DNA from: a virus
Taxonomy: Duplodnaviria; Heunggongvirae; Uroviricota; Caudoviricetes
Length of the DNA: 37,235 nt
IMG/VR virus record: IMGVR_UViG_2563366903_000020
Strand: one strand, 5' to 3'
Position 1 is the stretch's first letter, and every line of letters starts with the position of its first letter. Of this stretch, positions 1,291 to 4,200 are shown piece by piece. The position numbers were made by a program.

Positions 1291-4200
1291 TAATACCCAA
1301 TTTTTCTGAATCTAAAAAGCGCCTGCGGGCGGTTTTTGCATGAGATTAATTAACTGAAAATAAAAGGGATTTATTTTCAGGTGTCCATATAATGTCCATC
1401 TTTGAAACAAAAAAGCCCGCAGTTTTTACGCTACGGGCTTTGTTTTTCTTTGTGACTTGCGTGTGAGGGTGCTACTTTCGACCGAACCTTTGGCAACCGG
1501 ATAGCGGGGGCTTTCACCCCCGCTGCGGTTTCTTACGGTTTACACTGCAAGAACGCCGCAAATTCTGACCACATGATGTTAAGTCTGAACTCACACGGCG
1601 AACGGTGTATCATCCAGATGGCCAACAACATGGTTAAGCATAAAATGCTCACGATGATCGTTTTTTGCGGCATAGCGCTTGACTCCTTTTACAGGGAGGC
1701 GCTAACCTTCCACTTGTCTAGGGTAGGAATGGTCAGGGCCTCGGGTTAAACAATATGTTTGACTCGGGGCCTTTTCACATCCGGCCTTCAGGTAATCCTT
1801 CCAGCCGTCAGCCGAAAGGCACCCACGTGTAATCTACTGATTTCCCTTTGTGCGCGCAATGCTCAGTGTTGAAACTGTTTAGGGGGAGGGCGGCAAAAAA
1901 GCCCGCATATTGCGGGCAAATACGTCTGTAATCCAATGGAGAAAGGGGTGCCATATCGACTGAACCCGACAACCGGATAGCGGGGGCTTTCACCCCCGCT
2001 GCGGTTTCTTACTGTTTACACTGCAAGAACGCCGCAAATTCTGACCACATGATGTTAAGTCTGAACTCACACGGCGAACGGTGTATCATCCAGATGGCCA
2101 ACAACATGGTTAAGCATAAAATGCTCACGATGATCGTTTTTTGCGGCATAGCGCTTGACTCCTTTTACAGGGAGGCGCTAACCTTCCACTTGTCTAGGGT
2201 AGGAATGGTTAGGGCCTCGGGTTAAACAATATGTTTGACTCGGGGCCTTTCCACATCCGGCCTTCAGGTTTTCCTTCCAGCCGTCAGCCGAAAGGCACCC
2301 GCGCGTAATGTACTGGTTTTAAAGCCATACCGCAATCCTCCAGTTGTAGCGTTAACTGACTGCGTCCCTGATGGGATTTGCGCATTGTCTCCCGTGGAAT
2401 ATCTTTATCGTGGAAGATCAACTGAGGCTGGCCAATAATTCTGTGCACACTTTCCATTGTTGAAAATGTGGCGCTGCACTCAAGGTTATTGCACTGATAG
2501 TATTTGTAGCGGATGGTGCCGGTATCATTGGCGGCTTTACTGGTACGGATCCGGGCAGATGCGCCGCAGAATGGACAATGAAACATTGATATACCCCCCT
2601 GGCTGAACTGGGGTTGAACTCGTCGCCATTCTAACCATTGCTTTCCTTTTCGGCTATCCACTCGGGTATTCTTGCCTCCAGTTCAAGCCTTGTGGTGAAG
2701 CCGCTTCCGTCGATATTGTGTTCCACTTTTGCAATGAGCCAGTCCTGATTGTCTATTTCGGTTTTAAAGCCGGTTACCGTGCCATGCATTTCAGGGTAAA
2801 GCTCCGCTCTGCCCCGGGCCAGCGTGATGGAGAATTCAGCCGCACCGCGCTGTAATTGCTGCCACCTGGCGGCAGCTGCGCGCTGTGCAGCAATTTCATT
2901 TGGGTAGGTTTTTCTCAGAACGAACACGTTACCTTCTGCCCCCTCCATGTAGCTGCCTTCCCGGCTGCTGCTCTTTTCAGCGTGAGTTTTTCGTTTTTTT
3001 ATGTTGACGGCTTTCTTTTTGCCATGATTCAAATCCAGCCAGTACGCCTTCACCCCTGTGTATGCCTGGCGATCGGCTATTCTGAACTGGTGACTGTCTC
3101 CGTCACTGCGTGCCAGTGCAAATGAGGGGAGTGGGCGCCCGTCAGCTGTCACGCCGCCACCCGGCAGAATGAACAGCAGACAGCCATTTTTGACGGTAGT
3201 GATGGCTCCCAGCATATCAGCCATGCGGGTAAGGAATGACATGTCGCTTTCTTCCGTCTGGTCGGCATGATCGATTTCAATATCCATAAGCATATCGCTT
3301 ATCTGGGCTTTCAGTCCGTAACGGTGGGCAATAGCGGAAACCACGCGTTCAACAGTCACGTCGTGCCAGGATACTTCCCGTTTGACGTTAAATTCCTCCC
3401 TGAAGTCTGCGCTGTTTGCACTCAGTGTCAGCCGATCCGGAGGTCCTTCATGAGCGACCTCATCAACAATGTAGGTGCCTTTATCAACCAGAGGCTCTCC
3501 CTTCCATCCCAGCATGACTCTGATGTGTGTTCCCCGCCCGGGGAGAGCCAGCTGCCCGTCGGCATCATCCAGCACAAGAGTGACCCTGTCTGCTTCAAAC
3601 CCCCGGTTGTCTGTCATGGAAAGCGATATCACCCGGTTATTCAGTTCCTGAAGAGTGTTTTTATCCTGCTCCCTGTCCAGTGAAACGCTGAAATCAGGCA
3701 TTTTCACCAGTTCTTTCAGGGGGGAATAAACCGTGTTACCGTTCAGCAATACCATAATTCCTCCGTTTTTCCCGCCACAGTTGCATACCAGAAACACCAC
3801 CGGAATGAGTTTGGGTTGTATGTGTATTGCGAGAAACCGCAGTTCGTGAAAAAGCTCCCCGTGTTCGTAAAGATCTCTGCTGAACTCACACCAATGCAGG
3901 GTGAATAATATGGCTGAAACCCGTTTCCATGGCGTGCGGGTCCGGGAGAATGCGGATCTGGTCACGGCCATTAATGATATTGACTCCAGTGTGATTGGTA
4001 TCGTGGCTGTTGCTGATGATGCTGATACAAAAACATTTCCGCTGGATAAGCCGGTGCTCCTGACGCGTGTCATGGATGTGCTGGGTAAGGCCGGAAAAAC
4101 CGGCACGCTGTATAAAAGTCTGAAAGCTATTGCCGATCAGGTCAGCACCAGAGTTGTTGTGGTGCGGGTTGCTGCTGCGAAGGAGGGGGATGGTCAGCCG

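What the first reader, a model, noticed from the sequence alone, without database searches (positions are those of the whole stretch)
1408..2314. Two tandem hok-like type I toxin loci at the prophage junction next to serS
Two approximately 330-bp cores (1497-1824 and 1973-2300) are nearly identical, while their flanks are homologous but clearly diverged. Each core carries a minus-strand 46-codon ORF with an AAGGAG SD encoding a single-TM peptide that fits the Hok/Gef pattern (MPQKTIIVSILCLTMLLAIWMIHRSPCEFRLNIMWSEFAAFLQCKP), and each ends in a strong minus-strand intrinsic terminator about 110 nt after the stop, matching the size of a hok-type mRNA of about 400 nt. The ORF track does not show these genes because they are under 60 aa. 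Diverged flanks argue against a recent simple duplication and for two independently acquired or gene-converted copies. Putative mok and sok elements were not delineated.
Basis: partly seen in the sequence, partly recalled or inferred. Interest (0 to 1): 0.8.

Follow-up and report, generated by a model that had tools for sequence, protein, structure and literature searches.

The report
Two tandem phage-borne hok/sok toxin loci

Summary
Two minus-strand units (mRNAs about 1824->1408 and 2300->1896) share a 331-nt core with 5 mismatches. Their 3' flanks differ. Each encodes a 46-aa peptide that passes the Pfam Hok/Gef threshold, and each leader matches Rfam's hok-leader model (E 3e-8, below gathering). 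Each full-length RNA folds its 5' end onto a 3' element (z about -8), and 63 distinct relatives support that fold. A Sok-like antisense RNA is predicted at about 1715-1776 and 2191-2252 (+). No mok reading frame is conserved.

The units lie inside the prophage. The att core is at 1320-1330 and K-12 has an empty site. Copy number at this site is 1, 2 or 3 in other E. coli strains. Unit 2 has the flanks of a different unit type but a unit-1-type core, which indicates gene conversion rather than independent acquisition.

RefSeq already annotates both ORFs as "Hok/Gef family protein". About a third of complete E. coli genomes carry this subfamily. A 2026 preprint catalogues it, reports a 76%-identical relative among its toxic constructs, and describes tandem hok islets and prophage enrichment. 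Verdict: correct interpretation, already known, low interest. The mok-less design is the only mildly unusual point.

The parts
1320..1330 (.). attL core CCTGCGGGCG, inside the serS terminator. This is the left boundary of the inserted prophage.
   Evidence: Comparison with the empty K-12 site and with the int-dmsA junction of a related lysogen.
1381..1399 (+). Direct repeat GTGTCCATAtaaTGTCCAT, a putative arm-type integrase binding site. A second copy lies at 37211-37229 inside the 3' end of int.
   Evidence: Read directly. The function is inferred by analogy with tyrosine-recombinase attP arms.
1408..1824 (-). hok mRNA of unit 1, about 417 nt. The 5' end GGGUGCC is at 1824 and the 3' end follows the terminator.
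   Evidence: The Rfam leader match starts at 1824. MFE fold -168.4 kcal/mol, z -7.96. The family alignment begins to be conserved exactly here.
1831..1859 (-). Predicted hok promoter of unit 1: -35 TTGCGC (1854-1859), 17-nt spacer, -10 TAGATT (1831-1836).
   Evidence: TTGCnn and TAnATT are conserved at this spacing in relatives. The site is too weak for the consensus scan. Inferred.
1533..1673 (-). hok-1 ORF, 46 aa: MPQKTIIVSILCLTMLLAIWMIHRSPCEFRLNIMWSEFAAFLQCKP. The SD AAGGAG is at 1683-1688.
   Evidence: RefSeq gives WP_001135720.1 'Hok/Gef family protein' at the homologous position.
1467..1485 (-). fbi-like 3' element of unit 1 (..UCGGUCGAAAGUAGCACCC) that pairs with mRNA nt 1-17.
   Evidence: Pair table. 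Helix 1 is 91% paired over 63 sequences.
1412..1441 (-). Intrinsic terminator of unit 1.
1679..1776 (+). Predicted sok-1: -35 TTGACT (1679-1684), 18-nt spacer, -10 TAACCT (1703-1708), RNA from about 1715 to 1776, with an 18-bp hairpin (1735-1771) followed by UUUU.
   Evidence: Hairpin fold -32.6 kcal/mol, z -4.9. The complement of the -10 is invariant in 63 relatives. The position matches annotated sokC within the same Rfam model. No expression data, so this is inferred.
1896..2300 (-). hok mRNA of unit 2, about 405 nt.
   Evidence: MFE -168.0 kcal/mol, z -7.58.
2009..2149 (-). hok-2 ORF, 46 aa, identical to hok-1 except the last residue (Q instead of P).
   Evidence: RefSeq gives WP_001135719.1 'Hok/Gef family protein'.
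1946..1963 (-). fbi-like 3' element of unit 2 (..UCAGUCGAUAUGGCACCC). Its sequence differs from that of unit 1 but it still pairs with the 5' end.
1901..1917 (-). Intrinsic terminator of unit 2.
2155..2252 (+). Predicted sok-2: -35 at 2155-2160, -10 at 2179-2184, hairpin 2211-2247. The tail is UUUCC, as in most family members.
   Evidence: -34.3 kcal/mol, z -4.7. Register is +476 relative to unit 1.
2307..2335 (-). Predicted hok promoter of unit 2: -35 TTGCGG (2330-2335), -10 TACATT (2307-2312). It lies inside the 3' end of the ogr ORF.
2284..2586 (-). ogr (late-gene activator, Ogr/Delta zinc finger), 100 aa. Its last roughly 28 codons run through the unit-2 promoter and the first 17 nt of the hok-2 mRNA. 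No terminator lies between them.
   Evidence: Pfam PF04606 at 58.3 bits, the RefSeq annotation, and the sequence.

Best explanation
These are two adjacent hok/sok-type type I toxin-antitoxin cassettes. They are accessory cargo of a P2-like prophage integrated in the serS terminator, and they sit between ogr and the attachment site.

Each cassette is proposed to work in the following steps.
1. It makes a roughly 410-nt minus-strand mRNA from a weak constitutive promoter.
2. In the full-length RNA the 5' end (GGGUGCCUUUCGGCUGA) pairs with a 3' element just upstream of the terminator. A local CUCC:GGAG hairpin buries the Shine-Dalgarno sequence, so the mRNA is stable but silent.
3. Slow 3' trimming back to the GC-rich stem-loop after the stop codon would release the 5' end. 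The 5' end could then pair with the invariant GAAAGGCCCC box and open the leader.
4. A short (about 60 nt) unstable antisense RNA is made from the plus strand inside the leader. It would pair with leader nt about 49-110 and keep the mRNA untranslated or destroyed.
5. When antisense synthesis stops, the 46-aa Hok peptide would be made, insert in the inner membrane and depolarise or kill the cell. Candidate triggers are loss of the prophage DNA, transcription shut-off by an infecting phage, or prophage induction.

This subfamily differs from R1 hok/sok and K-12 hokC in having no mok reading frame, so the antisense RNA must act without mok-hok translational coupling.

The two copies arose by local tandem duplication. 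The core of unit 2 was later overwritten by unit-1 sequence through gene conversion.

Shown here: the sequence features, family membership of the peptide, conserved RNA pairing, prophage location and the mosaic structure. Inferred: transcription, antisense action, 3' processing, toxicity of these exact peptides and the biological role.
For: Peptide: Pfam HOK_GEF 26.6 bits against a cut-off of 22; PHROG 251 at E 1.8e-18; RefSeq names both ORFs Hok/Gef family protein.

Leader: full-length matches to Rfam RF01794 at E 3e-8. The same model hits the K-12 hokC leader on the hok-sense strand, with annotated sokC inside it.

Fold: MFE structures pair nt 1-17 with the 3' element in both copies, at z -8.0 and -7.6. 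On 63 distinct relatives the structure is 86% paired against 35-43% for slid controls. Thirty-one pairs carry double-sided changes. The fold-back helix is 91% paired, the anti-SD/SD helices 99%, and the post-stop stem-loop has 4 compensatory pairs.

Coding constraint: the ORF is 141 nt including the stop in all 63 sequences, while the leader linker varies from 22 to 26 nt.

Phage cargo: empty site in K-12, att core and arm repeats. Isolated P2-like phage Chuche carries one unit next to ogr. A different P2-family prophage at the same site carries three.

Gene conversion: unit 2 matches unit 1 at 168/169 positions across columns 106-280 and matches type-B units at 46/46 across columns 386-455. 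The converse comparisons are 24/30, 27/35 and 30/35 in the three blocks that tell the unit types apart, and 20/55.

Toxicity of relatives: constructs 82_1289 (76% identical), 72_1589 and 72_1621 are listed in the preprint's construct table (file 10), which I took to be its Table S2. They are not among the 3 non-toxic constructs of the 45 tested (bioRxiv 10.1101/2025.08.07.668861).
Against: There are no expression data for either strand. The Rfam score (43.9 bits) is below the gathering score (59). The NCBIfam Hok models score far below their cut-offs. Both predicted promoters are too weak for the consensus scan. No mok is present, so the R1 mechanism of antisense control cannot apply as described. 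The conserved Leu before the Cys-Glu motif is Pro in these peptides. The refolding of the truncated RNA is only an MFE prediction, and the predicted structure differs between the two copies.
Confidence: 0.85

Rival explanations
1. The cassettes are decayed, non-functional relics, as several chromosomal hok loci of E. coli K-12 are.
For: There is no mok frame. The promoter hexamers are weak. The Rfam and NCBIfam scores are below the curated cut-offs. A Leu-to-Pro change sits at a conserved position.
Against: Both ORFs are intact with a strong SD. ORF length is invariant in 63 relatives while neighbouring non-coding segments carry indels. RNA pairing is maintained with compensatory changes. The absence of mok and the Pro residue are shared by the whole subfamily, including construct 82_1289, which the preprint does not list among its non-toxic constructs. 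The subfamily is kept in 1750 of 5426 complete genomes.
Confidence: 0.08
2. The two units were acquired independently from different sources, and their similar cores reflect common ancestry only.
For: The 3' flanks and terminators differ strongly. Two flank types circulate in the population.
Against: Arrays of 1, 2 and 3 units occur at the same position with identical inter-unit junctions. Type-B units elsewhere carry a clearly different core (ITILMIV...). Only the window lineage has the unit-1 core inside type-B flanks, with a sharp switch near the stop codon. The preprint finds that 98% of hok islets contain a single 60% identity cluster and attributes them to local duplication.
Confidence: 0.05
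3. The cassettes belong to the host chromosome or to an older remnant at serS, and the prophage merely integrated next to them.
For: The serS-proximal unit (WP_001135720.1) is the same protein in lysogens carrying different P2-family prophages.
Against: K-12 has no hok at this site. The att core lies between serS and unit 1, and the arm-type repeats next to it match those at the int end. No second att core was seen between the units and ogr on reading. A packaged phage (Chuche) carries the unit next to ogr.
Confidence: 0.03

Closest known systems
Hok clusters 82 and 72 in the catalogue of Escalera-Maurer et al. (bioRxiv 10.1101/2025.08.07.668861)
   Same: The window peptides are 74-76% identical to proteins of the 82_1289 type (MPQKTIIVGMLCLTMLLTVWVLHASPCEFRVSFMWSEIAAFLQCKP) and share the ...AAFLQCK(P/Q) ending. 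The Stx-phage and Chuche relatives are clusters 72_1589 and 72_1621. None of the three is listed among the preprint's non-toxic constructs. The paper also reports hok enrichment in prophages and tandem 'islets' of 2-6 copies, which hold 13.5% of chromosomal hok genes in Escherichia.
   Different: The catalogue deals with coding sequences only. It does not delineate mRNA, Sok or Mok for these clusters, and it does not describe the ogr-att position or gene conversion between units.
hok/sok/mok of plasmid R1 (the paradigm type I system)
   Same: A toxin of the same Pfam family, a roughly 400-nt mRNA with a 5'/3' fold-back, a buried SD, an antisense RNA encoded in the leader whose -10 box aligns with R1's TATCCT (from memory of the R1 sequence), and a stem-loop after the stop codon that could protect a truncated mRNA.
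   Different: There is no mok frame, so no mok-hok coupling. The peptide is 46 aa rather than 52 and is only distantly similar. The locus is prophage-borne rather than plasmid-borne.
hokC-mokC-sokC of E. coli K-12
   Same: The same Rfam model covers both leaders. GAGG, AAAGCCCCGAG...CCCGAGGCC and AAGGAG align column by column.
   Different: hokC scores 118 bits and the window units 44 bits. mokC starts at an ATG that is ATT in the window, and the window has an in-frame TAA just before the hok SD.
hokW-sokW of Stx2 prophage Sp5 (Takada et al. 2021, PMC8621323)
   Same: It is a prophage-borne hok/sok system. The PHROG label 'MokW-like' is applied to the window's family. That study offers a candidate role, which is help with lysis and phage release on induction.
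   Different: It is a different locus. Published HokW is 51 aa and starts MKQQKAM (primers). The Sp5 relative of the window units is a separate, mostly unannotated 46-aa ORF between lom and orf66.

Membership tests
Hok/Gef toxin family (Pfam PF01848) | The sequence matches the family HMM above the curated threshold. | tested here: met
   26.6 bits against a cut-off of 22, E 4.6e-6, for both peptides. PHROG 251 at E 1.8e-18.
Hok/Gef toxin family (Pfam PF01848) | A peptide of about 50 aa with one N-terminal hydrophobic helix and the conserved positions M1, C, T, L-C-E and a distal E, as in the logo of the 2026 preprint. | tested here: met
   46 aa. The hydrophobic stretch is IIVSILCLTMLLAIWMI. 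M1, C12, T14, C27, E28 and E37 are present. The Leu before the Cys-Glu motif is Pro, as in the whole MPQKTIIV cluster.
Hok/Gef toxin family (Pfam PF01848) | Membrane-damaging toxicity on expression. | not testable with these tools
   Evidence exists only for relatives. Constructs 82_1289, 72_1589 and 72_1621 are not among the 3 non-toxic of the 45 tested.
hok/sok/mok type I toxin-antitoxin locus (R1 paradigm) | A roughly 400-nt toxin mRNA whose 5' end pairs with a 3' element (tac/fbi fold-back). | tested here: met
   MFE pairs nt 1-17 with nt 340-358 in unit 1 and 338-355 in unit 2, with z about -8. The helix is 91% paired in 63 relatives, with GC/GU/AU exchanges.
hok/sok/mok type I toxin-antitoxin locus (R1 paradigm) | The toxin SD is sequestered in the inactive mRNA. 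| tested here: met
   The GCGCCUCC...GGAG...GCGC hairpin (helices 7 and 8) is 99% paired across relatives. The unpaired probability of the SD is 0.17.
hok/sok/mok type I toxin-antitoxin locus (R1 paradigm) | A short cis-encoded antisense RNA (Sok) with its own promoter in the leader. | tested here: inconclusive
   Promoter-like TTGACT-18-TAACCT and an 18-bp hairpin with a U tail sit in the expected place and are conserved. The promoter fails the consensus scan and there are no transcript data.
hok/sok/mok type I toxin-antitoxin locus (R1 paradigm) | An overlapping mok reading frame that couples toxin translation to the antisense target. | tested here: not met
   Neither window unit has an ATG/GTG/TTG frame that enters hok from upstream. 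The same is true of 39 of 63 relatives, and the frames in the rest are inconsistent. The mokC ATG position is ATT and is followed by an in-frame TAA. The linker length varies by non-multiples of 3.
Rfam RF01794 ('sok', in fact the hok-sense leader) | A score at or above the gathering threshold of 59 bits. | tested here: not met
   43.9 and 43.7 bits, full-length, E 3e-8. The K-12 hokC leader scores 118.3 bits.
HokA equivalog (NCBIfam NF007290) and Hok subfamily (NF007279) | A score at or above the curated cut-off (89 and 73 bits). | tested here: not met
   37.2 and 27 bits. This is a related but distinct subfamily.
hokW-sokW of Sp5 (Takada 2021) | The same locus or peptide as the published HokW (51 aa, MKQQKAM...). 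| tested here: not met
   The primer sequences encode a different peptide. The Sp5 homologue of the window units is the 46-aa ORF next to lom.

The most novel reading that the evidence does not exclude
This 46-aa 'AAFLQCK' subfamily may be a naturally mok-less hok/sok design. In it the antisense RNA would silence the toxin without translational coupling, for example by RNase III-driven decay or by blocking an upstream ribosome-loading site around the retained GAGG box. The most variable leader segment, which is the target of the Sok 5' tail, would set which Sok controls which hok. Under that reading, gene conversion in this prophage has merged two formerly insulated cassettes into one cross-regulated pair. 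In addition, ogr runs without a terminator into hok-2, so late or constitutive ogr transcription could feed 5'-extended hok-2 transcripts and link toxin supply to the phage's lytic programme.
Probability: 0.2. Interest if true: 0.4.

Novelty: already known. Interest (0 to 1): 0.15.

Why it matters
It matters little beyond correct annotation. The result confirms that a tool-free reading of raw sequence can recognise a type I toxin locus that ORF tracks miss. It also adds a delineation of the mRNA, the predicted Sok and the fold-back for a Hok subfamily that has so far been catalogued only at the peptide level. Two modest points could be followed up. The first is how antisense control works when mok is absent. 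The second is whether tandem, gene-converted copies next to ogr and att affect prophage stability, exclusion of superinfecting phages, or lysis timing.

Tried and rejected
1. Identity with the published hokW-sokW was rejected. The 'MokW-like' label comes from PHROG 251, but the published HokW is a different 51-aa peptide.
2. A mok frame was searched for in all frames with ATG/GTG/TTG starts. Near-cognate CTG/ATT/ATC/ATA starts were also checked in the two window units. None is conserved. A 13-codon ATT-initiated frame in the window looks like a remnant of mokC, but it is frame-shifted in close relatives.
3. A plus-strand promoter-like site TGGCCA-16-TAAAAT (1619-1646 and 2095-2122) was found by the scan. 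It is no more than chance would give (2 found, 1.6 expected) and is not conserved in relatives.
4. PADLOC found no defence-system match for Hok or for neighbouring ORFs.
5. The genome-contig scan gave only 5 loci, because it holds one genome per species. Hits titled Xanthomonas, Planococcaceae and Vagococcus may be contamination (not checked), and they were not treated as evidence of host range.
6. Two of the four folds (L008 and L007) used wrong coordinates and are disregarded.
7. The resemblance of the hok terminators (CTGCGGGC) to the att core was considered as a possible secondary att site. It was dropped because the orientation is opposite and the motif is generic terminator sequence.
8. 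An assembly artefact was rejected, because 52 complete genomes hold a match covering at least 80% of the 1,047-nt two-unit query, and RefSeq lists two or three Hok genes in the top-ranked ones.
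Full report
**Setting**

The window opens with E. coli serS (1-1293). In K-12 the serS terminator runs straight into the dmsA upstream region. In the window the sequence departs from K-12 immediately after CCTGCGGGCG (1320-1330). The same 10-mer followed by the K-12 sequence reappears about 100 nt beyond the integrase gene in a lysogen with a near-identical prophage. 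The window ends at the stop codon of that integrase (36228-37235). Everything from about 1331 onward is therefore a P2-like prophage. It carries ogr, D, the tail sheath and tube genes, U, the A replication endonuclease, and a cox-like/C/int region. A direct repeat GTGTCCATAnnnTGTCCAT lies next to the left core (1381-1399) and again inside the 3' end of int (37211-37229). That placement is expected of arm-type integrase sites (inference).

**The observation**

The repeat finder reports 1494-1793 and 1970-2269 as 99% identical, 476 nt apart. The pairwise alignment extends the near-identical stretch to 1494-1824 and 1970-2300 with five differences. Downstream of it, in the mRNA sense, the two units become about 40-50% alike. 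Upstream, the promoter region is partly alike. Both 46-codon minus-strand ORFs are present and differ only in the last residue. Terminator-like hairpins with T runs follow at 1441-1412 and 1917-1901.

**What the peptide is**

- Both peptides pass the Pfam Hok/Gef gathering score (26.6 against 22 bits).
- Both hit PHROG 251 (E 1.8e-18).
- Their best NCBIfam hit is HokA, but far below that model's cut-off (37 against 89 bits).
- RefSeq already annotates the two ORFs at this position as "Hok/Gef family protein" (WP_001135720.1 and WP_001135719.1) in many E. coli chromosomes.
- The 331-nt core has relatives in 1750 of 5426 complete E. coli genomes, up to nine per genome. Nearly all listed hits (24 of 25 rows) are annotated the same way.

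**What the RNA is**

Rfam's RF01794 matches both leaders over its full length, at 43.9 and 43.7 bits and E 3e-8. This is below the gathering score of 59. The same model hits the K-12 hokC leader at 118 bits on the hok-sense strand, with annotated sokC (antisense) and the mokC start inside it. So the model describes the hok leader, and the window matches run from the mRNA 5' end (1824 and 2300) to the hok start.

The full-length transcripts fold at -168.4 and -168.0 kcal/mol, with z -8.0 and -7.6. In both, nt 1-17 pair with an element just upstream of the terminator (1467-1485 and 1946-1963). The two 3' elements differ in sequence (UCGGUCGAAAGUAGCACCC against UCAGUCGAUAUGGCACCC), yet both keep the pairing.

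I collected relatives from RefSeq E. coli, GenBank phages, GTDB genomes and IMG/VR, which gave 64 distinct units. One had a disrupted 5' region and was left out, and the remaining 63 were aligned. The unit-1 structure mapped onto that alignment gives these results:

- 86% of cells are paired, against 35-43% when partners are slid by 1-3 columns.
- Thirty-one pairs carry double-sided changes, and no shuffle reaches the observed covariation score.
- The fold-back helix is 91% paired, with GC/GU and UA/UG exchanges.
- The hairpin that buries the SD (GCGCCUCC...GGAG...GCGC) is 99% paired.
- The helix joining the start-codon region to the 3' part of the ORF is 100% paired.
- The GC-rich stem-loop after the stop codon has four compensatory pairs.

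The structure was derived from one member of the alignment, which favours it against the slid controls. The compensatory changes do not depend on that.

In silico removal of the 3' element makes the 5' end pair within the leader instead. In unit 2 its partner is the invariant GAAAGGCCCC box. That behaviour resembles the tac/ucb switch of R1, but it is only an MFE prediction.

**Sok**

On the plus strand, inside the leader, there is TTGACT (1679-1684), an 18-nt spacer and TAACCT (1703-1708). An 18-bp hairpin follows at 1735-1771 with UUUU after it (fold -32.6 kcal/mol, z -4.9). The same features recur 476 nt to the right. The complement of TAACCT and the CAAG of the -35 box are invariant in the 63 relatives. 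The position corresponds to annotated sokC in the K-12 alignment. The promoter fails the simple consensus scan, and I have no transcript data. Sok is therefore a well-placed prediction, not a demonstration.

**Mok**

No ATG/GTG/TTG frame enters hok from upstream in either window unit. Thirty-nine of the 63 relatives have none, and the frames in the others start at inconsistent places. Aligned with hokC, the mokC ATG is ATT in the window, and an in-frame TAA sits just before the hok SD. The leader segment where mok would begin varies between 22 and 26 nt among relatives. The hok ORF is 141 nt including the stop in all 63. The subfamily therefore lacks mok, which is a defining feature of the R1 paradigm. 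It works like hok/sok in its RNA architecture, but antisense control cannot go through mok-hok coupling.

**Whose genes, and how two copies arose**

P2-like phage Chuche, sequenced as a phage, carries one unit directly next to its ogr homologue. Related prophages at the same serS site carry one unit (L003), two (L001) or three (strain O22:H8 154, a P2-family prophage with a different structural module). Stx phages carry one unit between lom and orf66. The cassettes are therefore phage cargo.

Two flank types exist. Type A has the ...AAAGCCCGTAGCGTAAAAACTGCGGGC terminator and lies next to att. Type B has the ...TTGCCCGCAATATGCGGGC terminator. Type-B units elsewhere encode a distinct core (ITILMIVWMIH...). 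Window unit 2 has type-B 3' flanks (17/17 and 29/29 identical to L017:884 in columns 386-455) but a unit-1 core (29/30, 35/35 and 35/35 in the three blocks that tell the types apart, where the type-B unit L017:884 scores 24/30, 27/35 and 30/35). The switch falls near the last codon. This is the signature of gene conversion, or an equivalent unequal exchange, between tandem units.

**Comparison with what is known**

The published hokW-sokW of Sp5 (PMC8621323) is a different locus, a 51-aa peptide starting MKQQKAM. The name "MokW-like" reaches the window's family only through the PHROG label.

A 2026 preprint (10.1101/2025.08.07.668861) catalogues 1264 Hok peptides in 61 clusters.
- Its supplementary files contain the Stx-phage and Chuche-type peptides (72_1589, 72_1621) and a peptide of the window's own type (82_1289).
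- All three appear in the construct table (file 10), which I took to be the preprint's Table S2, and none is among the three non-toxic constructs of 45 tested.
- It reports that 10% of hok genes lie in islets of 2-6 copies that arise by local duplication, rising to 13.5% of chromosomal hok genes in Escherichia.
- It reports that hok is enriched about four-fold in prophages, and that 3.5% of hok-carrying phages have two copies.
- It explicitly leaves Sok, Mok and mRNA structure aside.

**Function**

The biological role can only be inferred by analogy. One candidate is addiction to the prophage. A second is exclusion of infecting phages, as reported for R1 hok/sok against T4 and cited in PMC8621323. 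A third is assistance to lysis on induction, as shown for hokW-sokW in that paper.

One structural detail may matter. The ogr ORF (2284-2586, Ogr_Delta) ends 17 nt inside the hok-2 mRNA with no terminator between them, so ogr transcripts should read into hok-2. In a P2-like Salmonella prophage, ogr is transcribed in all conditions tested (PMC7067206). Whether such 5'-extended RNAs matter is unknown.

**Verdict**

The genes are already annotated and the family is catalogued. A close relative (76% identical) was tested and not reported as non-toxic, and both tandem arrays and prophage location are described phenomena. Interest is low. The only mildly unusual feature is the mok-less leader.

Noticed in passing
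window 15305-17371 (-): A 688-aa ORF with DUF1737, a SASA sialate O-acetylesterase domain and DUF6645. From memory, this domain combination recalls the NanS-p esterases of Stx prophages. Here it sits as cargo among the tail genes of a P2-like prophage.
   Followed up: partly
window 2284-2586 (-): ogr is 100 aa, against 72 aa for P2 Ogr (from memory). Its C-terminal extension is encoded by the hok-2 promoter and the first 17 nt of the hok-2 mRNA, ending ...VPFG*. The spacer ORF upstream of unit 1 (1808-1993) ends in the same VPFG* for the same reason.
   Followed up: partly
window 1381-1399 and 37211-37229: The direct repeat GTGTCCATAnnnTGTCCAT occurs on both sides of the attachment site. One copy lies inside the last codons of int. 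These are likely arm-type integrase binding sites.
   Followed up: no
L008 (phage VT2-Sakai/Sp5) 1571-1711 (-), between lom and orf66: Stx phages carry a 46-aa Hok ORF of this subfamily. It is unannotated in several GenBank phage records, such as VT2-Sakai AP000363, and it is distinct from the published hokW. These phages therefore carry two different hok-type loci.
   Followed up: partly
L075 (IMG/VR) 1342-1774: One relative has 5' GGACACC instead of GGGUGCC while its 3' element is still GGCACCC. The fold-back is uncompensated, so this may be an inactive or deregulated copy.
   Followed up: no
L009, L010, L012 (records titled Xanthomonas pisi, Planococcaceae MAG, Vagococcus sp.): Enterobacterial-type hok units of this subfamily appear in assemblies of unrelated taxa. 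Contamination by Escherichia or Salmonella DNA seems the likeliest explanation.
   Followed up: no
window 26284-26601 (-) and 25590-27592: The region between the portal/terminase genes and the replication gene holds a short SSB-family ORF, a weak MarR-like ORF and ORFs with no family match. From memory, the corresponding region of P2-like phages is a variable cargo hotspot. PADLOC found no defence-system match.
   Followed up: partly
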